From positions 16,736,587 through 16,800,586 of the forward strand of contig CM120648.1 in the NCBI GenBank assembly GCA_051362555.1: 64,000 nucleotides of DNA, read 5' to 3'. Below are positions 6,401 to 45,214 of the stretch, in pieces. The stretch comes from Lingula anatina (Eukaryota; Animalia; Brachiopoda). Both the position numbers and the translations under genes were made by a program. The notes under the pieces are model-generated. The model had not been told where the DNA came from and ran no database searches. It saw only the letters and a program-made list of their open reading frames with translations. Position 1 is the first letter of the stretch. Every line of letters starts with the position of its first letter.

Positions 6401-6791
6401 TGCTATATCTTACTTCCACCAAGGCTGCTCTACAACAATATAAGAGTATTCTTGCGAGATGAACATATCTGAATCAGCACTACGGTGCCATGTCATCAGA
6501 TACCATGTGCTCACTCTGGTTGGACTTGTGCGGAACAGTGGACACATTTGCCAGAAGCTATTCACCTGCCCATAGTTGCTCCAGTGTGCATATAGGTGCA
6601 AATGTAGAGGCTGACAATGTGCAAGGGCAAAATGCACTGTATATTGCACATACAAGGGAGAATTTAACGTCATAACTATTGCAAAGTTTTATAAAGAGTC
6701 GTAAGGTGATAAAAGCATGGAAATGGCTGGTTACTAACTTTGACCATGCTGCCTTAAGTATCTGCACTGGCAATGTTTTTGATCGGATGTG

Positions 6792-7083
6792 TATGGGCGG
6801 CGGTTTATACAAAAATGCAAAACACGATTAGTCGTCATCGTTATCAGATCAGTCGAAATGAAAACACGATTTGTCGTCGTCGTTATCAGATCAGAAGGCA
6901 AAATACGACTAGTAGTCGTCAAAACGCAACTAGTCATCAAAACGCAACTAGTCATCAAAACGCAACTAGTCATCATCAAAACACAACTAGTCATCAAAAC
7001 GCAACTAGTCATCATCAAAACGCAACTTGTCATCATCAAAACGCAACTAGTCATCAAAACGCGATTTGACGCCAGATGGCGCC
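6792..7083 (+). repeat. Left TIR with a subterminal array of 18-21 bp AAAACGCAACTAGTCATC(ATC) units
   Basis: Inverted match to 26972-27201, with one mismatch in the first ~190 bp. About 8 array units here versus about 5 on the right. Confidence 0.93.
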
Positions 7084-7130
7084 CATTGTACGAAAATCTA
7101 GGCCAAGTCACATGATCCACAGTGATCAAA

Positions 7131-10100
7131 ATGGCGGACGTTATTGAAGCAGCATTATCATTCCTCGCTCGAACTCGAGAGTTATCTCTACGCGTACAAT
7201 CTAATAATGATATTATACTAGACGACGCTTTAATCTACCAGGTAGAACATTTATACAGGTCAATCTTGGATTACACTGCTCTCGATGCTGCGGCATTACC
7301 CCTAGCAGAAGCATCAAGGATACTTAGTGAGTATACCAGCAACAGCACCACCTCAATGACAAGTTCAACCCCAACAACAATCAATAATGATGATTATAAC
7401 AGTAGGCATGTCAATAGGCCTAATGCTGGTAGTGATGGTGAGCGTGATGATGATAATGGCGGAATGAAGAAAGGAAGAAGAAGATACGAAATATCCAGGG
7501 AGCAGTTAATTTTCTTCATAGGTAGGCTTTCCTCCTCTTTCTTTTGATTGTTGAGAAGATGTTTTTAAAATAAGACAAGGCCTGTTGTTTGTGAAATTGC
7601 GTTGTGTAGGCTCTTTGTTATTTTGAATTTTTGTCAAATCTCTTGTTGGTAACTTGTGAGGTTCTTTTTTTCGGGTCGCTTTTTCTGAGGAATTACATCC
7701 ATGCTTTTTTTGTATCATTTCAGAACATGACTTTACAGTAAAAGAAATTGCAAATATGGTTGATGTATCCCCAGGAACTATCAACAACAGAAGGAAAGAA
7801 TTTGGAATTTCTATTCGTCAGAAATATAGCACTATTAGTGATGAATTATTAGATAGTAAAATCCTGTTCTTCCTCCAGCAGTTTCCCAATTCAGGTAAAG
7901 TAATATCAAAATGCTTATTTTACTGGTTATGAAAAAATATTTAATGAAACATTTGTTTTTGTGTGTCATACAAATATTCTTTGACTTCTATCACCAATCC
8001 TTGACCTAACTGCATGGGCCTTCCTTGAATTATGTACTTACCACACACAATGTGGGGGACCCCTCTAATGATTTGTGGGGGTCCCCTTAAATTATTTCTG
8101 GTGTCCCCCTTTAATGAGGATTCCAATTTCCCACATTACTTTTAAACTCCTTTTAAAATAAAATAGCCCATGATACCGAGTATTACGGGCTCTCATCTTT
8201 GGATAATTCGATCATTAAGACTGCTATGGAGATTCCCAGTTTCTCTGTCTTAAACTCTGCACACGGAAAATAATGAAACAAATCCATGTAACGTCAACAA
8301 GTTATTATTGCACTACACTTTAAGTTACATGATACATCTACAAACCCTCTCTCAATCTCTATTCTTCTCCTCCCTCACTTAGCTCAACATTGAGATTTTA
8401 TGTACAACTTTATCAGTTAAAATGTCAATGATACTATAGATAATAAACTGATTGGTTAATTTAAAACAAGCTCATCACCTCAAGATGGGCACACCCAAGT
8501 GCTCCCTATAATCCAACAATTTAAATTACTGATATTATTTAAAGCCTATTATACATGTTAAATTCTTGTCTGAATTTTGCCCTTAATTGACCTTAGTACA
8601 AAGGCTACAAGCATTTAACTTTCTTTGATTGAATTACTACTACACCATGTATGAAAATTAATAAAATATTAAATTCAAAGTATTTTCCACTGCTGTGGTT
8701 CCTGACAACAGACACCAACCATATCAACTTGTAAAAAATTGGTTTCTTCTAACGTTATTCGTGGTAGGTCTGTCCTTTAGTATGAATTCATATCATTGAA
8801 AATTGACTTGCTAACGAATTTTAGCCACTGATTACTTCTTTAATCCTCCTATCTGAACAACTGAATATTCTATGAAACTGAATTTCTTCTAGGTTATAAA
8901 AGTGTCCAAGGGTTTTTGACATCTCAAAAAATTTTGGTACAACGCAACAGAATACGAGAGTCAATGTGGCGTGTGGATCCTCATGGACGACAAATCAACT
9001 CATTGAGAAGGAGAATCAAGCGCAGGGTCTATTCTGTTCCATCCCCCTTAGCCCTCTGGCATATTGATGGAAATCATAAATTGATAAGGTGAGATTACTA
9101 CTCTCTGAATTCTCATTTTAATGTCATTAAAAACAAAATAACAAAGTGGGGGTATTTCAGGGACCCTCTCTGCCATCCACCCACAACAAAATTCTTAAAT
9201 CATTCCATTAATTTTTCTTCTAATTTCAAATTTGCTATTGGCATTGAAACACAATTATTTAGGATCTTCTTTAATTTTCAGATGGAGATTGGTTATACAT
9301 GGAGGTATAGATGGCTATAGCCGAGTGATAGTCTACCTCCACTGCAGTACTGATAACAAATCTGGGACAGTTTTGAATCTTTTCAAAGAGGCAGTTTTTA
9401 TATGGGGACTGCCCTCAAGGGTCAGAGCAGATCAAGGAGTAGAAAATAGGGATGTGGCCTATTATATGCTTAGTCATGAGAATCGTGGACCTGGCAGAGG
9501 CAGTTTTATCACTGGCCGTTCAGTCCATAATGCCAGGATAGAACGGTTATGGCGTGATGTTTATGAAGCTGTTTTATCACAATACAGGGATATATTCATG
9601 TTTCTGGAAGAGGAGGGAATGTTAGATATGGATGATGAATTGTGTATCTCTGCCTTGCATTACACGTATGTCCCACGGATAAATAAGTCACTGGACAGCT
9701 TTGGGCAGATGTGGAATCAACACAAAATGAGAACAGCCAGGAATAAAACGCCACTGCAGATGTTTCTCACTGGTATGAATGAACAATGCCGAGATAATAC
9801 ACAAGTCGGTCAGGAATATATTCAGGTAACAAAATTTAAAAAAAAATTCCAAATACTATTAATGAGCAAACATCTTTACCAAAAAGCATGGATGATTTGA
9901 TGTTATAGTCGACTCATCCTTATCTCATAATTCCACCTCAAAATATTATACACTCAAGAGATTTACACCTTAATTTGTAACCAGTACTTGTTATAAGAAG
10001 TAAATTTTCATATCAGTGCTTTAAGTTTAGTCCTACAGTGCTTATTTATTAAATGTATAACCTTTTTAATTCAGATACCTACAGATAGGGGGGGTCCTTA

Positions 10101-12524
10101 GATAACCTTTTTCCCCAAAACCATGTCAAAACCACCTAAAAAGATGCTTATACATCTTAAAAACAAACTACAAAAAACCAAATTAGTCTATCTCTATTAT
10201 CAGAGCTGCTACTTGGGTTTTAGTATTTTGGAGAAAAATCGCTAAAAATACTTAAACTCTGTATTTTGTAAAATATGATGGTTTTTCATATCAATGTTTA
10301 TGCTTACATTTTAACACAAATTTCATTGTGACTAACAATTCTGACATAAAGACGGACTAAATACATATGAAAACTTAACTGAATGTTCTAACACCTACAT
10401 AATGATCCATAATAAGTTCAAAAAGACAGGAATTCAGTAAGAATTCAATTCACTAAAAATTCAATGCTTTTTGGAACCTTAAGTCAGTTAGCGTTATGGT
10501 GGATATTTAGTTCTTTTCCCAACAACTTTTTCAAGTTCATTCCAAACTGTTCTGGAGTTAACATCCTTCTCTTCCCTCCATCAGTACTGAATATCCTGAA
10601 GACAGGACTACATTTTGGCAGTGATAAGGATGTGTCTCTAGCATATGAGACTCCCCCCTATGAAATTTTGACTCATCCTACAGAACTTTATCAATCATAT
10701 TTTATTTGAGTATATGACTTTTATCTTGTAGTATGCATAATAGGGGATGCATTGGCACTTTTTGCTAGTTTGCAGGTGAAAGTTTTCATGAGAATAGATG
10801 AAAATTAAAAATGTGTACTCTACCAAACAATGAATCCCCTATGGAAAAGCTGTTTATTTGAAATTTTCCCAATTTTTTTACCAACAAACTTTCAAATACT
10901 AACAAAATATATGTCACAATGCAAACTATGTGGAAAATAATGGTATGGTGAATAAATATGAAATGGGACTTTTTCTTCATGTGAATCCAAATACCATAGA
11001 AAATGGAGATTTTTCAAGATTTTTTTTTCATTTTTTTCACCCAATATTTTACAATCAAACTTTCTAATATTTCCAATATATTCTGAATAAAGTATACTTA
11101 AAGGAAAGATGATGAAATGATCATCAAATACCAAATAAATAGCTTTTTCATAGGGGAATCTTTGGGTTGTAGAGGTCATACATGTATACTCAAATAAGAT
11201 TTATAAAGGTTTGTAGGGGGGAGTCAGATATTCATTATGAAATTTTGACTGGGGAAGTCAGATTTTCATGTTACACTGGTGTTCAGTAGAAACAGTTTTC
11301 CTTAATCTGCTAGTTTCTTTCAGCTCAGTCCCTCGGGCCACAGCCTCTAGTTTTGGTTTCTTCCTCAATCTTTGATCGGTGTCACCTCACTGCCGTTCCA
11401 TTTGAAGGTTGTGGACAGGATCTCATCTATGTTTTCACACTGATCAAACACAGGATATTTAACTGGATATTCAATAATTCCATAGTATTTTCTGCATTGC
11501 ATAGCCAGACCCTTTGCCATTTCTGGCAATATCTTCTTTGTCAAAGCTATGCACTCATTCAGATGTGCACTAGCACATCGTTTCACACTCTCAACTACAT
11601 GTCTTCAGTAGGCCATAGTTATCTTTCACTTCCTGGAATAATTCTTGGTTGAAACAGGAAAACTCAGGAGCATCTAGCTGAAAGAAATTCTCATTTACCT
11701 CATTTCTACTCAGCTCTAGATGTAATGATTGAAACTTTTCTTTCAGTTTGCTGTGTGTTGCACCCCTGGATATTGTTATGGCATGAAACTAATTGAATGC
11801 TACAACAGCAGCAACTATTCTGATATATCCCAATGCCAGAACACCTCTTACAAGACAAGCTAGATGCCATCATTGTCTAGTTAGTTATTCAGTAATACAG
11901 TATAGATTCCCTCAAAAGATAATGAAATCATGAGAATTCTAAAAGGAAAAATGCCATCAAAACTATTAATGATGAATTACCATGTTAATGTAATTGATAT
12001 AAGGTGTCAATGCCACCATGATTTTGAATATTTCGCTACCTTTTTACACAAATTCCCTAAAAACCAAATAAGAAACCCATCTATTTGGTTTTGGTGAGTC
12101 TGAAATAACTTGCCAGGCCTATATAACTTTCATTCATGTTGTAGGAAGACAGTCCCGAAACAGTAGAAAATCGTGCTAAAATGCTAAAAATCGCGTAATC
12201 ATAAAATGCAAGTAGCAGCTGTGTTAACAATGATCTTTCAAAAAGAACATTTGAAATATTGTTTTTAGGTGTGTAAGGAACTTTTTAGCTGGTTTTGACA
12301 TATTTTTGGAATTATGGACCCCCCCTACTACAGATTTTGGAGTTGATCCAGATGCACCAGTTCCTAGTGAAGTTGAAGAAGATGGTATTGTGGTACCTGA
12401 CAATTTGTTTCCAGTAGGTTATGTGGACATTGACCCATTGAATACAGAAGATAGATGGGGGATTGATACATACAGACAGGTCCTCACAGAACTACAGAGA
12501 CAACATGAGACTAATGGAAGTTAA
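7131..12524 (+). CDS. IS3/integrase-like DD(36)E transposase, 5 exons, ~500 aa; last exon interrupted by an insertion
   Basis: GT-AG exons 7131-7521, 7724-7894, 8893-9088, 9282-9825 and 10075-10085+12335-12524 join in frame (1503 nt). [29 protein letters not shown]; catalytic motifs [19 protein letters not shown] and [11 protein letters not shown]. Confidence 0.88.
10086..12327. mobile_element. TIR element (TAGGGGGGGTCC ends, possibly hAT-like) inserted into transposase exon 5
   Basis: TIR tagggggggtcc / ggacccccccta with degenerate extension. Duplication CTACAGA at 10079-10085 and 12328-12334. Removing it restores the frame [11 protein letters not shown] decayed ORF lies on the minus strand at ~11350-11890. 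Confidence 0.8.
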
Positions 12525-12848
12525 AACTGTAATGTCTTTTTATTAACTGATGAAGAATAAAATAGTTACAGATAACACATAAAGTGTAAAAACGGGTTGA
12601 CCTATTGTCTTCAAACTTTAAGGGGTGATCAATGTGACTAATTCAGCTCAAGTTTGAGAAAAAAGCCCGATTAGATTATTAATACCTTTGTTGTCATGCA
12701 TTTTTTTAATGTTCACTTTTTACATATTGGCAATTTTAAGAATTCCATGTGTCTGAACACCTTTGCTGATCACATATTCCATTTATCTGTGTTACCTGCA
12801 GTGCATAATTAAAATTTGCTTGTGATTATGGTGGTATAAGCACTATGT

Positions 12849-13805
12849 ACAAAGCAGCAAAGCTGTCAAATGTACAGATAAAATACAGAACTTAACAATG
12901 CACAAAATAGGCTACTGTCAATTCTGATGCAAAAGTACATTACATTTATCTGTAAATTCAACATCAAATTTTAATTATGCTCAACAGGTAATACCTATGT
13001 AAGTAAAATGTGGGGTTCGAGTAAAATATGGGGGTTCAAGTTAATACTTTGAAAATGCCAGAATGAGAAAAATGAAAATTTCATAAATAAATTGCATAAA
13101 TTCAATAATAAATGATAACCCAATTGAGTTGGCTTCCTAATTTGAATTGCATGCCAATCCTAAAAAATCATACTTTTAAGTTAAAAATAATAAAAAGTAA
13201 CACAGTTTTCTTTTCATAATGTTTGTAGTAGCAGTGCAAAAAGATTTCATCAATTTTGATGTAACATTACATTATAAATTACAGAATAATTATCACCAAT
13301 TTTTGATTATTGACTATAAATAGCATGAACATGTAGAAAATTTGATTACCATCCGGCTTCATGTCCATGAGAGCTCCGAGTCAAAACGATAACGATAGAA
13401 ATATGCCAAAACAATAAAAATGAATATTTCACTAAAATGTATAACTTCCAGAAAAAGAAGCCAATTAGACCAGTTTTTCGAATTCGTCTGCAAACCTTTT
13501 TGAAAGTTTGACAGTTATAAGTAACAGGGTTTTCCCATAATGATCATCATGGCAGCAGCACCCAATATTGTGTTTTCTTCTATTTTGATACAATATTACA
13601 TAATGCTTAACAGCAAAATGACCATCAATTTTTAATAATAAAATATTAGTATCAATGGATAATAAGAAAATGTGACTAGCAAAGGTTTTCAGGCCCATGG
13701 AGCTTCAAAGTTACACCTTGAAAATGCCAAAATGTAAACATAACAGCACTGTTCTGAAATGGTTTTTTCCCATTTTTAACAATTTTTTAACAAAAAACAA
13801 TTTAC
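12849..13805. mobile_element. Helentron-type repeat family A, partial copy
   Basis: Starts acaaagcagcaaagctgtcaaatgtacag, shared with the copies at 44572, 45433 and 60080. Confidence 0.6.
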
Positions 13806-14828
13806 AACTAGAGGACCAGAGAGGCGATACCACCTCCGGATATTGTACCACCAGATGTAGTAAGCGCATACATATGGACCCCCCCCCCCTCCAAAAAGGG
13901 GCACCATCACCAGTCTTGTGCTTGACAAGCTCTATAAAATGCAATCAACAAGAGTTCTCAAAATATGCAATATATATATATATATATAACTAAAAATGGT
14001 ACAATCAAGCAGATTTTTGAATTGACTTGCATTTTTCTACCATTGATCACTCCTGTGATTCTCTAGACAAAAGGCCTATTGGTTTTTCTTGAAATGTGTT
14101 GTCAGTGGTGCATATATGCTGACAAAAGAGAAAACCTGGGGGCAACAATGGGCACATCTCTGCAAGTTTAGAAGATATGGAGCAAGAAAATATGCAAAGC
14201 TCAGTTCATGGTGAAAAAGTAGGTCAAAGGTCAATACCAATATCATAGTATATGAATTTCTATTCAAGTTCAATAGTAACTATGGACCTATCTCTGCCAG
14301 TTTTGGAGATAAAAGGGACTAAATGTTATAATTTTGGAGTTACAATAATGTGCCATAAATTTACTACAGAAAAAATTAATTAAAATAAAGAAAAGGTCAT
14401 TTTGGTCAAAATTCTTGAAATGGGAGGTGCTCTGTAGTTCCAGATGTTCAAATTTGATGAAATAATGTCATTTTTGACCACAAGTTGTCTGCTTTACCAA
14501 TCTTTATGTATTATTTTTCCAGGGTTCAAAATTTATTATCCATTACCGTACTGAACATTTTGCTTTCACCACCAATATGTACTTTTTGATACAGCGTAAC
14601 TTGAAAACCGTATTGAATACAAAAAAAACGGAGACCACAATCAGTGTTGGGCTCTACATGCTCTACAAAATTCAAGAAAGAATGGGTCTCTAGCATTACC
14701 GGTTCCCGAATTAGAGACAATTTTCAGATTCGGTATCTTATGGACACTTCTCCCGTGAAAATGCACCAATTGACCTCAAATTCACGGAGATGAAATATGA
14801 CCCCAAGGGTAACACTTTCCAATAATAT
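13806..14828. mobile_element. Helentron-type repeat family B, truncated copy ending ~20 bp from the HECT stop codon
   Basis: Starts aactagaggaccagagaggcgat and is collinear with 55273-57990 once the RTEX insertion there is removed. Confidence 0.6.
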
Positions 14829-14847
14829 TTTGATTCGTTCAAAAATC

Positions 14848-17800
14848 CTAGTTCATGCCAAAATAGGCCGAACAAAAAGCCATGTCAAACTTTCTGTATA
14901 GATAGGTAGCTTCATATGGCATTTTGACCCTTGGTAATATAAGCTTGTTGAGACATGTATGGGCAGTTGGAAAATCCCCTGGACAATCTCCAAACGTAAT
15001 TTCTGGCTTTAGATGGAATCCAGTTGCAGGTATATGTGAAGAACCTGTTGTAAATTTCAAGATGCTCTCCATTGTAATGTACACTTCGTCCACTTTTCTT
15101 GGTGCACCTAGAAGATAAATTAAAAAATACCAAAAAGTGTGCTTTATGTAATCTCCTTAATGGCCTATCAATTAGGCAAATTACTTTATAAATCAGAAAT
15201 TAGCTAAGTGATACCCAAGGGATATTAACAGACTGACATTCTCAAAGGTCTTTCAGGCCCATAAGTCACATCTTAAGAAAAGCACAAAACAATAATGCAC
15301 AAAATAGGAGACTACCAATTCTGATGCAATAATACATTGTTTTACTGCACAGTCAACATGAAATTTTAATTATGCACAACAGGTAACAACGACGAAAGTA
15401 AAAGCATAAGGCTTCAGGCCCATCAGAGTTCAAGTTTATACTAAGAAAGTGCTAGAATGAGAAAAATGAAAATTTCACACAAAATTGCATAAATTCAATA
15501 ATAAATGATAACCCAATTGAGTTGCCTTCCTAATTTGAACTGCATGCCAATCCTAAAAATCATACTTGTAAGTTAAAAATAATAATAAGTAACACATTTT
15601 TCTTTTCATAATGTTTGCAGTAGCAATGCAAAAATATTGTTGTCAATTTTGATGTAACATTACATAATAAATTATAGAACAATTATCACCAATTTTTGAT
15701 TATTGACAATAAATAGCACGGACATGTAGAAAATTTGATTACCATTCAGCTACATGTCCATGGGAGCTCCAAGTCCCACAGTGAATATGCCAAAAGGCTA
15801 ATGAATATTTCACTAAAATGTATAACTTCCAGAAAAAGAAGCCAATTAGACTGCTTTTCCAACTCATTCTGCATTTTAGTCCTGTTTTTCCTTTTTAAAG
15901 GTTTGACAGTCATAACGCGGTTTTCCAATTATGGTCATCATGGCAGCAGTACCAAAAATGTGTTTTCTTCTATTTTGATGCAACATTACATAATGCTTAA
16001 CAGCATAATGACCATCAATTTTTAATAATAGAATAGGGGAGAGCGGGGTTGGTTGGAACAGTTTTCACCTTTTTTGCGATATCTCAGCAGTCAAAGCTTT
16101 GGGGACAAAAATAAAAAATCTGATAGGGGAAAATTATATGCCGCACTCATCTATGAAATAAAACATCAAGTAGGTCTTTTTATTTTAGAGTAATAAATGC
16201 TCAAAGTTGCCTCCTAAAACGTTCCATCTCACCCCACCTGCGGGGTAAGTTGGAACAGGCAGTGGGGTGAGTTGGAACAAGAGGGCGAGTTGGAACGCTT
16301 GCATATAAATTCAAAGTATAATTCATTTTAAGAGTAGGTTTATCTATATTAATTTCCCAACAAGTGCGTGTTACTTTGTATTCGTATCTACATAGTTTGT
16401 TAGCATTTTTTACGTTTACAATTCCCTTTTAAATAGTCTTTTCGATGTATAAACCATATCCAGGTACACGTCATTTCATAATGATAACAAAAGTGGTGTA
16501 GTTTAAGAGAAAAGAAATTGAACTCACATAACTCAACCTATCAACAACAGTATGTTAGACCTACAAATGAAAACTGTATCTCTTTCAACTCAACAACTCA
16601 GAATCAAAATCGCAGTTCTGACATACTCAGTATGTACACTTGGTCAACCTTAGTACAGTCTTCATGTGACCACTTTAGACAAACAATGCATTTAACCCAT
16701 TTCTCTTTTGGTCGGCTGTTAATGAACGGCTCCCCACAAACCAGAGATGGCCACTCTTCTTCTGACTCAGAATCGTTGGTCATCTTTAATTTCCTTTTTC
16801 TTGATTTTCTCTATCGACTAGAAATCTTTAACTGTTTTTTATTTTTGTTGCGCTTGTCCTTTTTAATTTTGTTGGGCTTGGCCTTTTCTTTTTCGAGTAG
16901 CTCATTTTCAGGTGTGTCAGTTAGTACTGCACTGCATCGTTTTCTTCTTTTAATCTTTGGACTGCGACGGTGAGCCTTTGGAACCAGTCTAATTATTGCT
17001 GGACTTGAGCTGTTTTGGGCTTTTCTTAAGTGCGCTTTAGACCCCATTTCCAGAGATTAGATCGATCTACTTTAGATCGACCTAACTCCCTGGGGGTTCA
17101 CGCTAAATAGCTGTCAGCCGAGCGGACACCAAAGTTAATTACCCCCTTACAGCTTGTAGTAGGCGGGACGGACATTTAAGCCGGATTATCTGACAGTAAT
17201 CTAGTGACAGTAATCTAGATCGATCTAAAAGCCTTAGTGTGCTGTAGCACCTCTTCCGGTGAGGGCAACTGAGATTTCAACTGAATCTATGCCTAAGTTA
17301 CGAGGTGAATGTTTGTCTTTTCTGGCGGATTTTGTGCCCTCGTTCACTAAACATTAACAGCAACCCCCAACCCATTACACAAAGCATCTAAAACAATATC
17401 GGCAGAATTGGTGTTGTATAGTTTATCCATAACATAGGCTCTCAGCTAGAATATTTTCATTTTGCCGCGAAAAGCAGAGTAATAATCGACATTTCCTTCC
17501 ACATCTTAAAGCAATTTATCGCAAAAAGCAACAGTGGGCATGCAGACAATTTTCGACCAAACAGCTAGCAACTGCATGTAACAAGCAGTGACCATCCCCC
17601 CTTGTATCTTCTACACGCATGTACATTCCGGCATCTTGGAGATGTTCTATCAGCTAGATTTCGTCTCCAGTTGGAGTTGTACTGGGTTACTACGTTACTA
17701 CTCTCTTCAAAGTTGAAATTAAAACATTTAGAGAGGTTTAAAAAAATGAAAAACACCGTGCGGGGTGGGTTGGAACACCCCTGACAGTGTTCCAACTGGC

Positions 17801-20800
17801 CCCATGTCAAATGTTCCGACCAGCCCCCATGACGTCATGGCCTACTTATGACACTGTATTTCTTGAACACGTGGGAAGTGATTAAAAAAAACAACAGCTT
17901 TTTGAACATCAAGGTGGTCCTAAACGCTTTGCACAATTTCAGTGATATAATCCTTATACTTTAGTTTACAGCACGATGAATGTCAAAAATATGAAAACTT
18001 ACTTCGAGTAGCGAAAATAAGTTTTTTTCGCATAAAACTTTTAATGCATTTTCGAAACTTCCACAAGTTTACCAGATGAATGACCATGCCACGTGACATT
18101 TTTATGCTGAAGGAGCACATGATCGGTCTTGTGATTTAAGAAATAAAGCCAATGTTCCAACTTACCCGCGTTCCAACCCACCCCGCTCTCCCCTATTAGT
18201 AACATGGACATTCAGAAAACGTGACAAGCAAAGGTCTTCAGGATCATGGAACTTCAAAGTAACACCTTGAAAATGCCAATATGTGAAAAATTAAATTTTC
18301 ACAAAAAACTGTTTAACTGCCAGAAAAAATTACCAAACAGACTGCATTGCCTGATGAAGCTGTATTTTAGCCCCATGTTTCTTTCCTGTAAGTTTGAAAA
18401 CATTAAGTGACATGGTTTTTCTTAAATGGTCATCATGGGAGCAGTGTCCAAAATAGGGGTTTCTTCAAATTTTGATGCAATATTACATAATGTTTAACAG
18501 CATAATGGCCATCAATTTTTAATCATAAAATATTTGTATCATGGATATTCAGAAAATGTGACTAGCAAAGGTCTGCAGGCTCATGGAACTTCAAAGTCAC
18601 ATCTTAAAAATGCGAAAATGTAAACTAGACAGCACTGTTCTGAAATGGGTTTATTTCCATTTTTAACATTTTTTAACATAAAACAAAATAAACAGTTTGT
18701 TGCCATTTTTATATAGCCAACTAAGAAAATTGATGAGATGGGAAAATATCAATAGAACAGTGTTAAATGTCCAATTTCCCCCATTCTGAGATTCTGAACA
18801 TAGTGGATGATTGAATCTGACAAACTGCAATGATATGAGTTTATTTCCATATTTGACACTTTATTACACAATACACGATAACAAGTTTACCATCATTTTT
18901 ACATAATCAATTAACAATGTTGTAAAGATGCAGGAAATATCAAACAAACACTTTTACGTATCTTATTACTTAAATAATGAGACTGTTAACATGCGTAAGA
19001 ATTGAATCTGAGGAAATGTGAAAAACAGCATAACTTCTAAAATAAAGGCCCGATTATGCTGATTTTCAAACTCAACCTGGGTTTTGGTTAGTTAGACTAC
19101 TCCTGTGAGTATAATGACAATTGGCCTATCTGTTTTTCTTATATTGTGTTATCAGTGTTGCATATATGTTGCAAAAAAGTGAAAAAACAGCATAACTTCC
19201 CTAAAAATGGCCCGATCATGCTGATTTTTGAACTTGACCTGCGTATTATGAATATTCATCAGTTATCGCTGAGTGCACAGCGACGACGGCAACGAAAGAC
19301 GCAGGTGATGGCTATATGTACAGATACATCTGTGTCTGTACATAAAAAGTGACACGTTAGGCTACAGAGCAACTGATTTGGTTTAACAAGCCTTGAATGT
19401 ATCCGACCACTAGAAAAAGCACTGCTATAAAGTAACATGTATGTACACCTAGACTGAATAATTTGCAATTTACCCATAATTTAACTAGAGGGCACATTAT
19501 AATAATTTAAAGAATTCAAAGTTTTATCTTATAATAGCCCTGTTGAGGTGTACATAAAATCAAACTATTACAGATCCTTTATCACTTTCATAATCATGAA
19601 GTTTGCTTAAACTTGTCCATTTGCTTTTATTGGTTGTTTCTCATTTATTGCCACAGGACACTAATGTCTCATATCACCAAGTTTTTTCTATAAATAGACA
19701 GAGGTCAATTTATATGATAATGATTACAGAGGTGACACCACTGGGTGTCATGTACATTCAGTAAGAGGATTTTTGAAACATGTTTATATCTTTCCTTTTC
19801 ACCGTACCTTGAATGAGTTTCAGATAGTCTGTAAAGTGACGAATCACAAGTAATTCACCATCTTTTTTCTCCGTGTCTTCACTATATGTAGTCCTGAATA
19901 CTGACATCATTTTTCCAGCAGTGAATTTAAATTCAGCTCTATGCAACAAGTGTCGAATACATGGCCTTGCGGCAATCAACTGAAATTTTAAAACGATAAA
20001 TTTACCACAAATAAATATCAATGCATGTATATAAATTGTGGGAGACAGTGGTCTGTATCAAAGGCATCAAACTCCTCAGTATGAAAATATGGCAAAGCTT
20101 ATGATGATGTAAACTGCAATTTGGGACAGAAAGGTATAATTTGAATAACAGCCTTAGAATTATAATCACCTGTATTATCCCACACATTTTTAACCCAACA
20201 AGGACCTCCTTAAGTGAGTCATCTGAACAGTCTTCTGTTGCTAGATTAAACACCACGTCTTCACTGAGGAAATCTGGTGATGGTCCTCCCTGTAGAATGG
20301 AAAGTCCTAAAAGAAAAATTAATGAGATCAGGTTTCATGTTTTAATGAATAAGGCTTAGGATTATTAAATAATTGTGAGCAGTTTGGACTCTTTTTCTCA
20401 AATACCACTTGTCAATTATGAAATAATTTTATGCCACTGACTTACCTATAAGAATACCTACTGCACGAAAGATTGATGGTTGTACAACAGTAGAATCTCT
20501 AATTGGTTCACCATTATTAAACAATTTCTTTCCAACTTCATTGAGAAGCAATTCGAAGAATTCCCTCCTCGGTCCCCCAAAATCTAAAGCCTCTTCACCA
20601 AGGAAAGTGACATTGAGTGGCAGCCGAGTTGGATAACCAGGCAGGCAGAAGTCTCTCAAACCATCATCAAAGATATGATTTCGCCTGATAAATAAATCTT
20701 GAGTATCTCCTTCAACAGTATCTGATTCTGAAGCAAGATCTAGGGGTCTACCTATAATGAAATGCTCCTTGAACACTGCCAAAATTGACTTTGTGTCATC

Positions 20801-23800
20801 AGTATCAGGTCTGAAATTATACATGAGGGCAATGTGATAGATTTTTACAGAATAAATGACTGAGACTTTTCTGTCTCGGTGATTGCATATGTTGATAGCT
20901 TAAAGCTAACCATGATAAATAGCAGACATATACATAACAAGAAGAATTTACTGCATAAAACAAAAAACAACCTATCACTGATGATTACTGATGCAGACAC
21001 AAGTGCTTCATTTGAATTTTATAGGCACATGCTACCAGAAAATAAATAAATGCTTATGTTTTACTTACAGGAGAGGCTTGATGTTGGAAGTTATCTCATC
21101 TGCTATTGCAATTGTATTTCTAATATCTTCATGCTGCTCAAAGTCTATTTCTTCTGAGTTAATATTTCTACCAACATCATGTATTTCCTACAATGTAATG
21201 ATATTGATAAGATATTACCAGGAAACTTGATACAATATCAAAACCACATACCAGAAGAAGAGCAGGGTCTTGAAATTTATCTTACAACTAAAAGATTCTT
21301 TAAATTCCTAAATTACATTCTGTAGTAATAATTGATGTTACACATATTTTTATGGAATGAAAAATTAAACCAAATTTCTTTTCGAATTTAGTCGAAATTG
21401 ATGAATTTACAAATTACATGAAGAAACCAGACATTGGCAACAATAAAAGCATAAAAATTGTTTCTTTGCTTTTCACTGAAAACATTATAACATATTAAAT
21501 ATATAGAGATTGTTTTTTTTTTCACTCATTTTCTAATGTAGAATAAGTTCACAGAAGCCATCTTACCAAATCTGGTAGACTATCACTAACAGCATCAGAT
21601 ACATCATTTCCTACCTGAAATTAATTTGAAGACAACAAACTGTCATTCATGTTACAATTTTATAAGTCATGGTAAAAATTATATATTGAATGCTTAGCCC
21701 AAATATGTCTGCATGGTGAAAAATTATATAATTAATGCTTACCCCAAATATGTCTGGTTCATCATCTTCATCAGAACTAACAGTGACAGGTGTCTCCTTA
21801 ACAAAGAGAAAGGAAAAAAGGTGTACATAGATGACATATATTATACAGGTATATCAGGAATAATAATAATAATAATAATTGAAATGGCCTACAAAACCAC
21901 AACAATAGGACTCAATGCTTACTTGGAGATGACTCAAGACGATCTGTTGAAACCGGTTCTCCAGCATTAGAGAAGCAAGAAACTCTACTCTGTGTCATGG
22001 GAGGCTCAGAAGTTCATACAAGAATTAAACTACTATGAAAGACCAGGAACAAGCCACAAACTTTGCAAAGAGAACCAAACAAGCAGCAAAAGAATGTGGT
22101 CTGAAGAAAATGACAGAAAAATGGGAAGAAAAAACGATGCATGGACAATGCCCCAACAGAATCAAGAAAGCCGATGTGGAACAAGAACAGACACATCAGT
22201 GGCTACAAAGTGCTGGCTTGAAGGCTGAGACTGAAGGAATGATGATCGCTGCACAAGATCAGAGTCTAGCAACACGATCCTACCATCACCGCATCATTAA
22301 CGATGAAACAGACCATAACTGTCGCATCTGTAATTAATTCAAGGAGACTATCGATCATATAGTCTCAGGCTGCCTGTCCCTTGCAAGATCAGAATACATC
22401 CAACGACACGACAAGGCGGCAAGCGATACCCACTGTAAAATATTCAAGCATCACCAACTCCCAGCAGCAGAAAAGTGGTATGATCATCAACCACAGACAG
22501 TGACAGAGAATAAAAACATCACAGTACTCTGGGACATGCCTGTGAACACAGACAGAGAAATTCTTGCAAATAGGCCAGACATCATCATTAAAAACAAACA
22601 AGAAAAGTCATGCATCATGATTGACATGACAGTCCCATCTGAACGAAACGTATCCATCAAGGAAGAAGAGAAGCTCTCTAAATATAAAGATCTGGAAACT
22701 GAGGTGTCTAGAATGTGGGGTATGAAGACGACCACAGTACCTGTTGTAGTTGGAGCACTGGGCCTTATCAAGAAAGGACTGGATAGGCAGGTCCAGCAAA
22801 TACCAGGAAGCCCAAATGTCCGAGAGCTGCAGAAAATAGTCTTGCTTGGTAGTGCGCATATCATCTCATGAACACTAAAATCGCCTCAGAGTCATGGTAT
22901 GACTCCGGCATCTTAGTAATTGCCAAAGGTTACAGGAATCATCACATAATAATAATATTTGTTAAGATAACAACCAAAAGGTTGAGGATAGCATAAAATG
23001 TACAAAATCCATGTTACAATATTTATGTAAGATATAAATTATGCAATAAGATAATGTATCCACATATAAATAAAAATTAAAATAAGAAGCACAGACATCT
23101 AAAAGTTTGGATAAGAGTAACTGAATAAAGTGAAGTACAATTTAATAAAAACCAAAATGAGTTCAGGTTTCTCATTTTTTTCATATTGAATTGTCAGAAT
23201 GATTTTCACAGATTTTTACCTCTTTTCTTGGACACCTTGCAGCATGTGATCTTATTGTACCAGCTGGAAACATCTTGAAACAATGCAGACATTTTATTTC
23301 TTGTTTATTTTCCATCCCCAAATTGTCAACCTTCAGAGGTAGGCTTTTCTGCATGGGTCTAACATAGATTCTTCCAGACGTGGTAAGGCCTGCTAAAAAT
23401 GAGACATCACAGGACCCAGTACACTTAACACTCAGAGATCCCCTACTCCCTCCAACACTGGTGAGAATATCAAACCCACCACAATCTTCTAATAAAGGAT
23501 ATGCTCTGAAAGAGGAAAGAGACAGAAATTATGAGACAATAAATAATAATTGCTTAAAATCACTGAGATTGTTCTATCTTCAAAGATGTACATTGGCTCT
23601 CTAGTTTATCATGGTCCAATATAACCTTTTTAGGTTTTTCTATGTTAATTTGAACTGACTTCAAGGCCCTGTATTGTTTGAGTGAACTACTTTCAGCTAC
23701 AGCAGCTATCACCTTTTACATTGGCAGAAGTAAATATTGATTCAAGACTTTTTAGAAAAAAATTTAGGCCTATTTCATTACCTATATATTACTTCTGATA

Positions 23801-26800
23801 CATGGTCAGATAGACCCGACTTCCTGAATTCTAACTTTTTGACCCCCAAACCATTTAATTCTAAAATTCGCCTCTCTTCAGCATCTGGAGCACCCTCTTG
23901 ATCCTTGTCAGCCAAGGCACAGATATTCTTTTTAATATACTTCTCATGGCTTTGAGCTGAAAGATTAAGAAACATGCTAATCTCTAATGTAAGACCCTAT
24001 TTCCAGAGATTAGATCAATCTACTTTAGATCGACCAAACTCCCTGGGGGTTCACGCTAAATAGCTGTCAGCCGGTCGGACACGAAAGTTAATTACCCCCT
24101 TTCAGCTTGTAGTAGGTGAGACGGACATTTAAGCCGGATTATCTAACAGTAATCTGGTGAGACTCCCCACGGGGATAGATCTATCTAAAAGCTCTGGGAA
24201 TACAGCCTAAAAGAAGGTAATTATGTCTAGTAATTTTTTGTATAAGTCATTTTATTAGCAAAATCAAGTTAGCTGAAAAAATAATTAAAAGAAAAAATTT
24301 CTAGGTCTCAAAAAGAAATATTTCAATAGAAGTGTGTATAATTATTTGAGAAGAATCTAAAGAACCATCTCCTCAAAATGTTGGTGAAGAATTTCATGTA
24401 GGCTTACTCTAGGGTACTACATACCTAGGCCTACATACATAGTGTTTTTCTATAAAGTTTTGCCAGACAACTACATGTAGGTAATAGCTGAACTAATAAT
24501 AGATTATATTTTACTTACATGCACTCTTAGGTAGTTTTTTGGAATGACGTGCGTAGGGGTGAAACCTCGGAAATGTTCTGTCTATAGCCTATATTAAAAA
24601 TGAAAAGACCACATTATAACACTGAAGACTGATTGATAAAAGTGAGAGCAGCATTTACTTTTTATCCTCATTAGGCCCCTAGTCGAAATCGAAACTGTTT
24701 TTGAAAACTCAATACTATATTTACCTAATAAATAAAGACAAAGCAAACATGAAAAGGGAGGCAATAAAATTAATGTCAAGTGGCTGGCGTGGGCCATGGC
24801 TAAGGGTAGGGCTAAACAAAATAATAATAATGAGCCTAAACTTAAAATAAACAGGTAAATAAAAAGCAAAGGCCCTTAATTATTATGCAAATTATAGCCA
24901 AAATTTAAAATGCCAAATCAGCAACAGCTACTTTATATCATCGTGAATATTAGGCCTATTAATATCATAGATGTTAATAATATACACCATTTATCATCAT
25001 GTCTGATTATTATTATTATTATATATTCAGGGCTCGACATTAGCGCCTGTCCAGGACAGGTAAAAATTCAGTTCGGACAGGTGAAGTTGCAGGGTTGGCT
25101 GTCCAACGGACAGGTCATGATTTATGACAAATTTGGAGCAAAAAGTCTTTTTTAAATTCATTCTTACATGCATACTGACGTCTTTTTGTCTCTTCCTATA
25201 CGGTGCTGAAAATAAGTGACCTACTTTTGGAACAAAACACATGAAGTCGGAAAACGAAGTCTGAGCAAACTTACCGCCAAATTATAAAAGTGAACACCCT
25301 CCAGAACTTCACAAGACAAAATTTATTCACATAACAGGCTCACTACTGAATATTTATTTGGTTATAAATCCACGTGCTCCAGAGATAAATACCGCTCCAA
25401 AAACGGAAACTACACAAGTACTGTGCTGGGTACAACAGCTAGATTGAACTGGATAAACCAGATATATCTAGTTTGTTGTCAAGGCAACATACTACCTGTC
25501 AATCAAATACATTGTGTGCTATCTACTCACTATAGAATGTGAAGTCTTTGGGACTGAAGATCTTGTTCAAATATTGTTTATTTGCCAAAATATAACCTCA
25601 AGTTTTGTATGATGTTTTTTATTTAATGACTTTAACATCACCTATACCATTTACAGTTAAAAATTAGTGCTGGAATATGATAAATTCACACTGCTGTCAT
25701 ATACCAGTGTGATATTGATGTAAGGAGAAAATGAGAAACAACAAATATGAGAATTTAAATAAAAAGGGGAACTTTTTTATACTGATTTTATTTAACTCGT
25801 ATATTTAAAAAACACATGATAACCCCTAAAAAGTTGAATTGTTAACATAAATGTAAGTTAAGTATTTTAAAATGAATATTCTTTCATTTTTCATTGAACT
25901 TTATTCAAATATTATAAATTTTAAATATTTTAATAAAATTGATCTAACAGTACCCCCCCCCCCCCCCTACCTGCTGCTCAGGGTATTTTTTAAGCTTTGG
26001 TTAAACTTCATGTGAATTTGTTATCAAATTGAAGATTTACAATTAGTAGACCCTGTACCCAAAATCCTAGGAGAAGCCCTGCTTGAAACTATGTTAAATC
26101 AGACTTATATGCAAGATTAAGTCTTCAGGAGTTCACAAGTATGAAATAACAGCTTTTTATCTGAAAATAAATCCACTTTAAGGTGCATTTTCCAGCTCAT
26201 ATGATTGAATGTCTTGGTAATAAATGCATTGAATGTATGACTACACATATTTATTTACAAAGTTCAGTGGTATGAATAGAAAATAAATTATTGGTTTTGT
26301 TGGACAGGTTGGATTGAAATCGGACAGGTAAAATTTATGAGCGCCTGTCCGAAGTTAGTGTCTAACCCTACATGACCATGTCTATGTACACTGATACTGC
26401 CTTAGCTATTAGTCCTATATATGCCTATATCTATAACCTAAAATATATAGGCCTAATAATATAATAATTAATTAATCTAATCTAATTATTAGGGTCGATG
26501 ATAATAAAAACAGAAGGCCAAACCCAGGCCTAGTGGGCTACTTACCATAGCACTACTTGTAGGAGTTGGCCTGTTATCAGACACAGCAGTAGATGTAAAG
26601 GGTCGCCGTTGGCATTGTTGGTCAGCTGGCAGTGGCAGGGTCGAGGCGGGGGTGTTCTCCGAACAAGATCGAGGAGGGGGTGTCCTCCGAGTCTGGCTCT
26701 GCGTCTGAAAAATGCGTCGGTGCTCTGCTAAAATCACCCCTGGCGTCGATTGTTGAGCACCGTTGGTGTTGTTATCGTCGGCTCTGACAAAGTCACCCAA

Positions 26801-26884
26801 TAATTCTGAAGTCTCCGCAAAAAGGTGTAATAATCTTCTGGAGATTTCTTCTCTACTTTGCGCACTCTGACTGTTGTTAGCCAT
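14848..26884 (-). CDS. Transposon-borne G2E3-like HECT E3 ubiquitin ligase with UBZ-like CCHC finger, 11 exons, ~674 aa
   Basis: GT-AG exons 26884-26546, 24588-24519, 23956-23782, 23505-23220, 21796-21743, 21614-21567, 21187-21069, 20810-20446, 20306-20170, 19979-19808 and 15107-14848 join in frame without stops (2025 nt). Motifs: CLHC-x11-H-x3-C, VTFLGEEALDFGGPRREFF, LKFTTGS, catalytic FPTAHTC, and a -4 Phe in the terminal FGMN. Confidence 0.88.
16036..18193 (-). mobile_element. pogo/Tc1-mariner-type deletion derivative with a C-terminal PHD-finger remnant
   Basis: TIR ggggagagcggggttggttggaac / gttccaacccaccccgctctcccc flanked by TA. Other family A copies show the uninterrupted aaatattagt site. 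Minus-strand remnant SAVLTDTPENE...KWVKCIVCLKWSHEDC. Confidence 0.75.
17040..17235 (+). mobile_element. ~215-bp Harbinger-like MITE, copy inside the pogo element
   Basis: Near-identical to 23993-24207 and 36174-36387; the right end is degraded. Confidence 0.7.
21881..22950 (+). pseudogene. 5'-truncated R4/Dong-like non-LTR retrotransposon (CCHC knuckle plus restriction-like endonuclease) in HECT intron 4
   Basis: CRICN*FKETIDHIVSGC, then RPDIIIKNK...IDMTVP...EEEKLSKYKDL and VPVVVGALG. In-frame stops at ~21968 and ~22335 plus a frameshift. Flanked on both sides by (TAA)n. Confidence 0.82.
23993..24207 (+). mobile_element. ~215-bp Harbinger-like MITE in HECT intron 2
   Basis: Imperfect TIR gaccctatttccagag / ctctgggaatacagcc with TAA on both sides. 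Confidence 0.75.
25028..26370. mobile_element. hAT-like non-autonomous element in HECT intron 1
   Basis: Ends cagggctcgacatta / tagtgtctaacccta, with subterminal ggacaggt repeats at both ends. No clear TSD. Confidence 0.55.
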
Positions 26885-26971
26885 TAAATCTGATAAACGC
26901 AAGCACTGCACTGCACTACACTCAGAATTTCGCGGGTATTGACTGTGACGTCACCGCAAGATTGACATGAG

Positions 26972-27201
26972 CGCCATCTGGCGTCAAATCGCGTTTTGAT
27001 GACAAGTTGCGTTTTGATGATGACTAGTTGCGTTTTGATGACTAGTTGCGTTTTGATGACTAGTTGCGTTTTGACGACTACTAGTCGTATTTTGCCTTCT
27101 GATCTGATAACGACGACGACAAATCGTGTTTTCATTTTGACTGATCTGATAACGATGACGACTAATCGTGTTTTGCATTTTTGTATAAACCGCCGCCCAT
27201 A
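26972..27201 (-). repeat. Right TIR of the IS3EU-like element
   Basis: Reverse complement of 6792-7083 with fewer array units. Confidence 0.93.
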
Positions 27202-28384
27202 GATGTGTGTAAACATCACACAATTGTTTCAACTTACTGGATTAAAAGTATGAACATCTTGCTCGAAAGTGTAGTTCTTAGCTAGTATTATAGATTTGCC
27301 TTACTTAATAGACTAACGCAACTTTAAATGCTTGTTGCTAGGGTAATATGCTGCCTAGCAATCGTAGCTAAGGTTAATTTGGGTTTTAATTGCCTTAAAA
27401 TAGTCAAGTGACAGTTCTGATGCCATGAAACATAGTTATTAGCATTTCTAAACAATTTAAACTGGACAAGAAAGGTCTTATTAGCTTGTTACTAAGGAAA
27501 TTCACTTCCATAGCAACGGTTGCTAAGCAACGCTTTGAAATTTTGGGCACTGCCCTTGAAAATGATCAGTATAGACCAAAGAACAATTGTGCCAAGTTTC
27601 ATGCTTTTTCCACATTTTGAGCAATTTGTCCAAAATATAGCACCAGTCATCCAGACTACAAGTACTATTTTTTTGTATTCCAAACCCAAGGTCACTGTTG
27701 TGTATGAATACACTACTTCCTGTGAAAAGTAGTTCCATTTCATGAAAAATGGTCGTCTGCTAGTTTTATTTGCAAACAACAATCCACAAAGTCAGGAAAA
27801 TAAGGTATTATCCAAAGTACTTCAACATTTAATTTATTTGTGTGTGTTAACAACAAACTGGTGATGAAATGTCTTTGAATCTAGAAGTGGTAAGACATCG
27901 AGAAACTTGACAAAGTACATTTGAGAATTTAGGTATATCTAAGCTTTCATGAACAGCTACAAGATGAAGAATATGAAGAACTGGACTGTTCTGTTGTGAG
28001 ACTTGAGTTGTTCTTCACTGACAAATGGACAAGAAGTTCAGGGATTAAACAATGTAAGATGTTTTTCTTGTGACTTAATAAAAATACAAATAAAGCATAC
28101 TATAAATTCCATTAAAAAGAGTTCTTCATCCTTATTCAAAATCCTAATCACTAATGGGTTCATAGAAATTTGTCAGTAACAGTAAAGTATTAACTATAGA
28201 AAATGTCTCCACTCTACATACATTTTTACTAAAGCACAGCTGTGTGCTCACTGAATTTAAATATATGCTTAAAAGTTTTTTTATTGAAATTAAGGCAAAC
28301 ATATTTATGGATAAAAACATTGTAAGACTAATTAACTTTCAAATATTTTACATAATAATCATGTCTATCCACAGTTAATACATG

Positions 28385-44664: not shown

Positions 44665-45214
44665 TATGGGCGGCGGTTTATACCAAAATTACAAACACAA
44701 TTAGACGTTGTAGTTATCAGATCAGACAAAAACAATTAGATGCCGTAGTTATCAGATCAGATGGCAAAATACGACTATTGAAAACACAACTAGAAGCCAA
44801 AACTCGATGTGACGCTAGATGGCGCTCATGTCAATGGTCTTGGCTACCCTTGCGCCGACGTCCCAGTCAATACCGTGAAATTCTAACACTGACAAGTGCT
44901 TGCGATTGACAGATTGAGGAGAGTCGACAGGTGTACCAGTACTATAGTAGGCTAGTATAGAGAATTACAATAATGGCTAACAACAGTCAGAGTATTCGAG
45001 CCAGGAATGTTGAAGCTGCTTCAATAACGTTTGCCATTTTGATCACTGTGGATCATTTGACTTGGCCTTGATTTTCGTACATGAGCGCTATCTAGTGTCA
45101 AATCGAGTTTTGACTGCTAGTTGTGTTTTCACGACTTGTCCACGACTTTACCATCTGATCTGATAACTACAACGTCTAATCGTGTTTTTAATTTTTGTAT
45201 AAACCGTCCCCATA
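44665..45214 (-). mobile_element. 550-bp non-autonomous MITE of the IS3EU-like family
   Basis: Ends tatgggcggcggtttatac / gtataaaccgtccccata with 6-bp TSD CATTAT (44659-44664 and 45215-45220). The interior retains the first codons of both genes of the large element. Confidence 0.9.

What the first reader, a model, noticed from the sequence alone, without database searches (positions are those of the whole stretch)
6792..27201. Complete IS3EU-like DNA transposon carrying its own intact, spliced HECT E3 ubiquitin ligase
Seen: near-identical TIRs, a perfect GATGTG TSD, a DD(36)E integrase-type transposase starting ~50 bp inside the left TIR, and an 11-exon 674-aa HECT ligase starting ~90 bp inside the right TIR. 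The ligase has all splice sites in phase, no stops, and retains the catalytic Cys (PTAHTC) and the -4 Phe. Known: eukaryotic IS3EU elements are characterised by TAY..RTA termini and 6-bp TSDs; HECT ligases transfer ubiquitin through that Cys. Inference: the ligase is a dedicated second gene of the transposon rather than random cargo. It could degrade or modify host silencing or repair proteins, or turn over the transpososome. This may also explain lineage expansions of G2E3-like genes. I cannot verify whether this pairing has been described.
Basis: partly seen in the sequence, partly recalled or inferred. Interest (0 to 1): 0.95.

Follow-up and report, generated by a model that had tools for sequence, protein, structure and literature searches.

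The report
Jumping gene with shortened ubiquitin ligase
This 20-kb jumping gene (IS3EU type) carries, opposite a transposase gene that is interrupted in this copy, its own spliced and weakly expressed HECT-type gene, which keeps the catalytic cysteine but lacks the segment that normally docks the E2 enzyme, so it likely passes on ubiquitin by an unusual route.

Summary
Mostly confirmed. The element spans 6792-27201, with TAT..ATA ends, 99% TIRs and a GATGTG duplication; the empty target site lies elsewhere in the window. The 11-exon, 674-aa HECT gene is open and weakly transcribed, and reads support one splice junction.

Two corrections. (1) A nested 2.2-kb element splits the transposase's last exon, so this copy may not be autonomous. 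(2) The HECT domain is not canonical: about 76 residues matching the E2-binding small subdomain are missing. The same gap marks a conserved clade (58 of 68 representatives; cysteine kept in 45 of 46).

The HECT gene is a standing second gene of animal IS3EU elements. A HECT C-lobe lies downstream and convergent in 37 of 101 related transposase loci (28 of 50 with at least 2 kb of downstream DNA). Seven of 8 elements with TIRs and a perfect 6-bp TSD carry it, under purifying selection.

I found no paper on the pairing, but could not see Repbase. Substrate and activity are untested.

The parts
6786..6791 (+). Left copy of the 6-bp target-site duplication GATGTG
   Evidence: single copy at the empty site
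6792..7085 (+). Left TIR (TATGG start), with 42-bp and 18/21-bp subrepeats
7131..9825 (+). Transposase exons 1-4 (7131-7521, 7724-7894, 8893-9088, 9282-9825): helix-turn-helix, then DD(36)E core (D246, D303, E340); open frame
   Evidence: Pfam HTH_24 E=1e-4 and rva_4 E=2.8e-69
10075..10085 (+). Start of the native transposase exon 5, behind a polypyrimidine-AG acceptor
10086..12327 (.). Nested 2242-bp inverted-repeat element with a 7-bp CTACAGA duplication; interrupts transposase exon 5 (stop at aa 442 if read through)
12328..12524 (+). Rest of transposase exon 5 (conserved C-terminal 63 aa); the duplicated target supplies an AG acceptor before 12334
14848..15107 (-). HECT exon 11: C-lobe with Cys640 and Phe671, and the stop codon
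   Evidence: the exon 10-11 splice is seen in 4 RNA reads
19808..20810 (-). HECT exons 8-10 (20446-20810, 20170-20306, 19808-19979): large N-lobe subdomain; the ~76-residue gap matching the E2-binding small subdomain lies inside exon 9
21069..21796 (-). HECT-gene exons 5-7 (21743-21796, 21567-21614, 21069-21187): acidic linker
   Evidence: RNA depth in these bins
23220..23956 (-). HECT-gene exons 3-4 (23782-23956, 23220-23505): beta-grasp ubiquitin-like domain (about aa 140-252) and a C2HC zinc finger (aa 267-287)
   Evidence: model of the homologous domain from L087; weak finger match
24519..26884 (-). HECT-gene exons 1-2 (26546-26884, 24519-24588); ATG about 84 bp inside the right TIR
26968..27201 (-). 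Right TIR
27202..27207 (+). Right copy of the target-site duplication GATGTG
44665..45214 (.). 550-bp non-autonomous derivative of the same family with its own 6-bp TSD (CATTAT); keeps the first 21 nt of the HECT ORF back to back with the transposase start
58884..59587 (-). Uninterrupted copy of the host repeat (empty site, one GATGTG)

Best explanation
This is a two-gene IS3EU DNA transposon whose second gene encodes a short HECT-type protein that keeps the catalytic cysteine, lacks the normal E2-docking subdomain, and likely ubiquitinates proteins at the element's own transposition complex. Shown: the element, its insertion, both gene models, low-level spliced transcription of the HECT gene, the family-wide pairing, purifying selection, and the clade-wide gap. 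Inferred: (1) both genes are transcribed inward from the TIRs; (2) the DDE transposase excises and inserts the element, making a 6-bp duplication; (3) the HECT protein still forms a ubiquitin thioester on Cys640, but gets E2~ubiquitin through its ubiquitin-like domain and zinc finger or through a partner; (4) it most likely marks the transposase, or proteins bound at the insertion site, so that the post-integration complex is cleared and the gaps are repaired. This copy's transposase is cut at aa 442 unless a weak in-frame splice bypasses the nested insertion. Odds: dedicated second gene 0.95; still a ubiquitin-transfer enzyme 0.7; target at the transposition complex rather than host silencing about 0.5.
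For: Insertion. Gene models. Expression: 27 reads in three stranded RNA runs, all on the strand expected for the HECT gene and nearly all in exon bins; 4 reads join exon 10 to exon 11. Pairing: C-lobe downstream on the opposite strand in 37 of 101 loci, against 1 downstream same-strand, 3 upstream and 0 upstream same-strand; Pfam confirms 31 of the 37; 7 of 8 TIR+perfect-TSD elements carry it; 27 loci remain distinct at <90% transposase identity. Selection: in 16 HECT/Ubl exon pairs dN is 0.01-0.63 and always below dS, which is above 1.1 or saturated in 14. Short clade: 99/98 support on C-lobe columns alone, holding the window, 14 short proteins and 4 transposase-linked loci; Cys in 45 of 46, Phe/Tyr at -4 in 42 of 58. 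Model of relative P0001 (pLDDT 83) has a HECT fold (Z 15.3, rmsd 6.1, 264 aligned; model 3-302 spans Smurf2 369-742) and no strand between residues 71 and 259. The N-domain is a beta-grasp fold (Z up to 7.3). Fungal IS3EU carry an alpha-kinase in the opposite orientation to the transposase (PMC12730594, passages).
Against: No activity or substrate evidence exists. Co-inheritance is loose: Mantel r=0.23, p=0.02, rows not independent; the HECTs of L052 and L077 group with the window's while their transposases do not. That fits a host target as well as a private transposase partner. Twenty-one of 50 loci with at least 2 kb downstream show no convergent HECT part, and three loci have a divergent layout. 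Expression is very low (8-10 reads per ~12 million); only 1 of 10 introns has read support, and no read spans the gap in exon 9. The zinc-finger match to the WRNIP1 UBZ is weak (E=0.43) and lacks the Asp seen in that alignment. The fold evidence comes from relatives (P0001, L087), not from the window's own spliced protein.
Confidence: 0.5

Rival explanations
1. The HECT protein is an element-encoded counter-defence enzyme that ubiquitinates host silencing or surveillance proteins (piRNA, KRAB-like or chromatin factors), so that the element stays expressed.
For: Loose co-phylogeny and apparent HECT swapping between transposase lineages. Fungal IS3EU also carry TET/JBP genes proposed to counter silencing (PMC12730594, passages). 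Helitrons carry active deubiquitinases (PMC9741609, passages). Variable N-terminal additions, such as SAM and Neuralized domains, in relatives.
Against: The gene keeps a fixed slot beside one transposase type across very distant lineages, unlike the TET genes that move between superfamilies. No host substrate is indicated by any search.
Confidence: 0.3
2. The short form is not a ligase. Having lost E2 docking, it acts as a ubiquitin-binding decoy or scaffold, or accepts ubiquitin from another E3 without passing it on.
For: The missing segment aligns with the helix, hairpin and helix that follow the first N-lobe block in WWP1 and AREL1; PMC3077247 (passages) says the small subdomain hosts the E2-binding site. 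[quoted passage not shown]
Against: The cysteine (45 of 46), the DxGGP motif (58, 58, 58, 57 of 58) and the C-terminal aromatic residue are conserved across clusters under 50% identical, which is expected of retained chemistry. One passage of PMC3077247 places the E2 surface on the large subdomain, so part of the interface may remain.
Confidence: 0.15
3. The HECT gene is a host gene captured by chance in this copy (Pack-type cargo) and has no role for the element.
For: GingerRoot elements in Selaginella carry host gene fragments (PMC6839031, passages). This copy is full of nested repeats (3529 of 20410 bp coding). Six of 15 HECT matches in five records have no transposase match within 10 kb.
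Against: Same gene, same place and same orientation in 37 loci and 7 bounded elements; a diverged 550-bp derivative keeps the HECT start; purifying selection.
Confidence: 0.03

Closest known systems
IS3EU/GingerRoot superfamily (Repbase; PMC10045372 passages and supplement alignment rows; PMC6839031 passages)
   Same: TA..TA termini, 6-bp TSD, integrase-like DDE core without HHCC. By eye, the core matches the IS3EU-1_CVi and IS3EU-1_SK rows of the supplement, including an identical 12-residue stretch round the first Asp in the CVi row.
   Different: Neither paper's main text mentions HECT (0 occurrences). This copy is 20 kb because of nested repeats, against 6.8-9.8 kb for the seven bounded relatives.
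Fungal IS3EU with alpha-kinase and TET/JBP genes (PMC12730594, passages and Table S1 search)
   Same: TAYGG..CCRTA ends, 6-bp TSD, and a protein-modifying second gene in the opposite orientation to the transposase.
   Different: The second gene here is HECT-type; 'HECT' and 'ubiquitin' have 0 occurrences in that paper's text and held supplement.
Canonical HECT E3 ligases (Smurf2, WWP1, NEDD4, AREL1, UBR5, E6AP)
   Same: Bilobal fold, DxGGxxRE motif, catalytic Cys and -4 Phe.
   Different: About 76 residues matching the small E2-binding subdomain are absent (motif-to-Cys span 200 aa against 271-287 in long relatives). The N-terminus has a beta-grasp domain and a C2HC finger.
Class IV HECTs G2E3 / GL-Metazoa (PMC3673628, passages)
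   Same: Divergent, fast-evolving animal HECT domains; likely the same broad group (recalled resemblance, no tree with G2E3 run).
   Different: No G2E3-type RING/PHD fingers here; the Cys is kept; the paper makes no transposon link (0 occurrences of 'transpos').
Helitron-encoded VTD/OTU deubiquitinases (PMC9741609, passages)
   Same: Precedent for ubiquitin-pathway enzymes encoded by animal DNA transposons.
   Different: Opposite chemistry, different transposon class, and shown active; the HECT here is untested.

Membership tests
IS3EU/GingerRoot | TA..TA termini with terminal inverted repeats | tested here: met
   TATGG..CCATA, 99% over 211 nt; definition from PMC10045372 passages
IS3EU/GingerRoot | 6-bp target-site duplication | tested here: met
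   GATGTG on both sides and a single copy at the empty site
IS3EU/GingerRoot | DDE transposase of the IS3EU lineage, no HHCC motif, first Asp 100-300 aa from the N-terminus | tested here: met
   D246/D303/E340; Pfam rva_4 and HTH; motif blocks match the Repbase IS3EU rows in the supplement, by eye only. No tree with Repbase sequences was run.
IS3EU/GingerRoot (autonomous copy) | Uninterrupted full-length transposase | tested here: inconclusive
   Exon 5 is split by a nested element; three in-frame bypass splices are possible on paper; no junction was listed in the RNA lay
Canonical HECT E3 ligase | C-lobe with catalytic Cys and -4 Phe | tested here: met
   Cys640 and Phe671; Pfam PF00632 E=4.6e-10
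Canonical HECT E3 ligase | Bilobal HECT fold with large N-lobe subdomain | tested here: met
   On relative P0001 (36% identical over 310 aa): Z 15.3, rmsd 6.1, 264 aligned to Smurf2
Canonical HECT E3 ligase | Small N-lobe subdomain hosting the E2-binding site | tested here: not met
   About 76 profile positions are missing within one exon; segment length 32 against 102-106; no strands in that part of the model. Filed as a HECT-derived short variant, not a canonical HECT.
Canonical HECT E3 ligase | E2-to-E3 transthiolation and substrate ubiquitination | not testable with these tools
   Needs biochemistry
G2E3 orthologues | N-terminal RING/PHD-like fingers as the active ligase, with a non-functional HECT | tested here: not met
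   No such fingers in the translation or in the exons scanned; one C2HC finger only
Class IV GL-Metazoa HECTs | Phylogenetic placement with G2E3/GL-Metazoa | not tested
   No reference sequences were in hand

The most novel reading that the evidence does not exclude
Animal IS3EU transposons carry their own ubiquitin ligase as an obligate accessory gene, and one widespread lineage (corals, bivalves, brachiopod, echinoderms) has evolved a minimal HECT that is active without the E2-docking subdomain. It would load ubiquitin by a new route, through its own ubiquitin-like and zinc-finger domains or a partner, and act on the transposition complex. These elements would also be the source of the expanded G2E3-like HECT genes in animal genomes.
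Probability: 0.35. Interest if true: 0.85.

Novelty: new variant of a known kind. Interest (0 to 1): 0.65.

Why it matters
IS3EU is barely studied, and I found no paper giving it a ubiquitin ligase. If the pairing is general, many 'uncharacterized HECT' genes in coral, mollusc, echinoderm and fish annotations are transposon genes, which changes counts of HECT family expansion. A natural HECT clade that keeps its catalytic cysteine but has lost the E2-docking subdomain is a direct test of what HECT catalysis needs. It also points to a ubiquitin-dependent step in eukaryotic transposition that can be tested with one point mutant.

Tried and rejected
No whole genome is held for this window, so copy number in the host genome was not counted. 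Viral contigs held no relative of the transposase. The run search listed no RNA holder; this is no evidence on expression. The first read lay over 20 kb was swamped by nested repeats: 15 joints were shown and 709 hidden, none of the shown ones a predicted intron. DNA run X2 matches the element with no differences in its long pieces and may be the source sample, so I do not count it as independent. Complex prediction (L030 transposase with its HECT N-terminal region) was not available, so binding is untested. The protein atlas did not answer. The Kojima 2019 review is not held, and Repbase entries could not be seen. Rejected: a missed exon as the cause of the HECT gap (the gap lies inside a 137-bp exon; the flanking introns are 139 and 190 bp, too short for 76 codons); a private lesion (clade-wide); chance cargo (see rivals). 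hmmalign placed only the C-terminal half of the short proteins on the long profile, so the left edge of the gap was read by eye from the MAFFT alignment. Foldseek gave no match at E<=0.001 for the N-domain; the beta-grasp call rests on consistent Z 5.6-7.3 hits, a range that can reflect a common arrangement. Rows dropped: the trees used 31 of the 37 convergent loci (C-lobe >=65 aa, core >=140 aa), reduced to 27; one search used 68 of 150 listed representatives; L050's HECT hit is 9.5 kb away and may belong to another element.
Full report
1. The element is real. The arms 6792-7002 and 26991-27201 are 99% complementary. The full TIRs run to about 7085 and 26968, with 2 mismatches in 234 aligned bases and 60 bp of extra subrepeats on the left. 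The ends read TATGG..CCATA and GATGTG flanks both. The element sits in a host repeat whose uninterrupted copy lies at 58884-59587 on the minus strand with one GATGTG; 685 of 704 columns match the joined flanks. This shows insertion with a 6-bp duplication, and the near-identical TIRs suggest that it is recent. No genome is held. The closest named relatives are from marine invertebrates.

2. The transposase. Exons 7131-7521, 7724-7894, 8893-9088 and 9282-9825 give an open frame with a helix-turn-helix and D246, D303, E340 (rva_4 E=2.8e-69). By eye the core matches the IS3EU-1_CVi and IS3EU-1_SK rows in the supplement of PMC10045372. Read through, the protein stops at aa 442. The separated 63 residues are a conserved tail (8 of 120 homologues hit). 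Donors at 9773, 9809 or 10094 could splice in frame to 12334. RNA depth here was at most 1.5 in one of three runs, and no such joint was among the 15 shown. Autonomy of this copy is open.

3. The HECT gene. Eleven minus-strand exons give 674 aa with no stop, ten GT-AG introns, Cys640 and Phe671. In three stranded RNA runs, 9, 10 and 8 reads of about 12 million each were laid on 19730-23700. All had the orientation expected for a minus-strand RNA and nearly all fell in exon bins; a fourth run gave 4 reads. The joint table was empty, but four reads in X13 leave exon 10 with letters that match the start of exon 11 at 15076-15105, so the 4.7-kb intron is spliced. Expression is very low, nine introns lack read support, and no read spans exon 9. 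Domain order: N-terminal helix and low-complexity region; a domain at about aa 140-252 shared with relatives, whose L087 homologue folds at pLDDT 92 into a beta-grasp (best Z 7.3, rmsd 2.5, 77 aligned); a C2HC finger weakly like the WRNIP1 UBZ (E=0.43); an acidic linker; then HECT.

4. The HECT domain is short. Against long relatives, the window protein, scallop P0001 and P0123-P0126 share a clean gap. On a profile of 12 long relatives, which aligns end to end with WWP1, AREL1 and NEDD4, the gap covers about positions 163-238. In WWP1 this is the helix, hairpin and helix after the first N-lobe block. PMC3077247 (passages) says the small subdomain, helices 6-8 and strands 5-6, hosts the E2-binding site; assigning those labels to the WWP1 residues is my own knowledge, and another passage there places the E2 surface on the large subdomain. 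The model of P0001 (pLDDT 83) spans the whole Smurf2 HECT (369-742) with 300 residues and has no strand between residues 71 and 259. The search of 1.84 billion representatives gave 1040 hits at E<=0.001. Of the 150 listed, 68 held the N-lobe anchor with enough sequence behind it; 58 are short (mode 32 residues) and 10 long (eight at 102-106). Of the short ones, 45 of 46 that reach the site keep the cysteine. On C-lobe columns alone the short forms are one clade (99/98) that includes four transposase-linked loci (L002, L005, L052, L077) whose N-lobes I could not read. Named members come from Lingula, Antedon, Lytechinus, several bivalves and the coral Paramuricea.

5. The pairing is a family trait. 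A transposase alignment fetched 80 metagenome loci (the best 80 of 502 confirmed, in a scan that stopped early) and 21 loci from genome records. An iterated local profile found a HECT C-lobe downstream on the opposite strand in 37 of 101, downstream on the same strand in 1, upstream in 3 (298 kb upstream and 406 kb downstream scanned). With at least 2 kb downstream it is 28 of 50; 21 of the 50 have neither lobe. Pfam confirms 31 of the 37. The cysteine is present in 32 by pattern and in 35 by eye. Eight loci have TATGG..CCATA ends with a perfect 6-bp TSD: L030, L033, L034, L036, L043, L073 and L087 contain the convergent HECT, and L100 is a 1.66-kb deletion derivative. Exons for the small subdomain are visible in L030, L033, L034 and L087, so long and short forms both ride on IS3EU. 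In this window a 550-bp derivative with its own TSD keeps the first 21 nt of the HECT ORF back to back with the transposase start, so the gene predates this copy. In 16 hand-picked HECT or Ubl exon pairs dN is below dS in all; dS is above 1.1 or saturated in 14, as for 3 transposase pairs. Co-inheritance is partial: the window groups with L002 and L005 in both trees, but L052 and L077 join only in the HECT tree; Mantel r=0.23, p=0.02, rows not independent. In the reverse test, 9 of 15 Pfam HECT matches in five records lie within 10 kb of an rva_4 match (3 clearly convergent, 1 weakly, 3 divergent, 2 same-strand) and 6 do not; 4 of the 9 were already known from the transposase search.

6. How it likely works. 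The transposase moves the element by DDE chemistry (established for the family). The second gene is kept by selection and retains the thioester cysteine, so I infer that it still transfers ubiquitin (0.7). Lacking the usual docking site, it would have to recruit E2~ubiquitin through its beta-grasp domain, zinc finger or a partner. The fixed slot beside one transposase type makes the transposition complex my first choice of target. The loose co-phylogeny keeps a host silencing target nearly as likely, and a non-catalytic decoy is possible.

7. What is known. I read passages (term searches, not whole texts) of PMC10045372, PMC12730594, PMC6839031, PMC11934779, PMC3673628, PMC2837046, PMC3077247, PMC9741609 and PMC5751038, and searched the held supplements of the first two. 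None links HECT to IS3EU. Nine full-text searches listed no such paper; I saw listings only for the papers not named. PMC11934779 calls IS3EU structure and function largely unexplored. Repbase entries and the Kojima 2019 review were not visible; protein names such as IS3EU-1_CGi_2p imply multi-protein entries that may already note a HECT. This scan has noted the pairing in 12 findings from at least 6 other genomes; two word searches and one sequence search found no note of the missing subdomain.

8. Verdict. A real IS3EU element and a real family-level HECT partner; not a clean autonomous copy and not a canonical HECT. New variant of a known kind; interest 0.65.

Noticed in passing
window 44665-45214: 550-bp non-autonomous derivative of this family with a CATTAT duplication; it keeps both start codons back to back. 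DNA read depth at the TIR ends is far above that of the interior, which suggests many such short copies.
   Followed up: yes
window 10086-12327: Nested inverted-repeat element with a 7-bp duplication. A GT at 10094 in its left end and the duplicated AG at its right end would allow in-frame removal as an intron, like an Introner; untested.
   Followed up: partly
L102 (G004:C39), L103, L104: Three loci from one record have HECT and transposase head to head (divergent) instead of convergent; L104 is TIR-bounded with both 5' parts deleted.
   Followed up: partly
L081-L101: Contigs in records titled as bacterial or archaeal MAGs carry intron-split IS3EU and HECT genes; probably animal host DNA binned into those genomes (inferred).
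   Followed up: no
window 7060-7085 and 26968-26990: Both TIRs end internally in the same GC-rich motif, also kept in the 550-bp derivative. It resembles CTCF/YY1-type sites (recalled, no call) and could serve as the promoter of both genes.
   Followed up: no
window 28388-29371 (-) and 39326-39739 (-): NHL-repeat exon (Pfam NHL E=1.6e-19) and an upstream exon with a RING-like CxxC start; probably a TRIM-NHL gene ending about 1.2 kb from the element.
   Followed up: no
window 285-2642 (+), 55653-57071 (+), about 21900-22900 (+): Two non-LTR reverse transcriptase ORFs (RVT_1) and a decayed retroelement-like fragment in HECT intron 4 (no Pfam hit).
   Followed up: no
P0177, P0182, P0184, P0193; P0002, P0127-P0129: Short-HECT relatives in bivalves carry N-terminal SAM domains; long fish relatives carry a Neuralized domain. 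These may be fusions to host genes or domestications.
   Followed up: no
window 35216-36196 and 36871-37366: Tandem arrays of 70-bp (13.7 copies, 97%) and 84-bp (5.9 copies) units.
   Followed up: no
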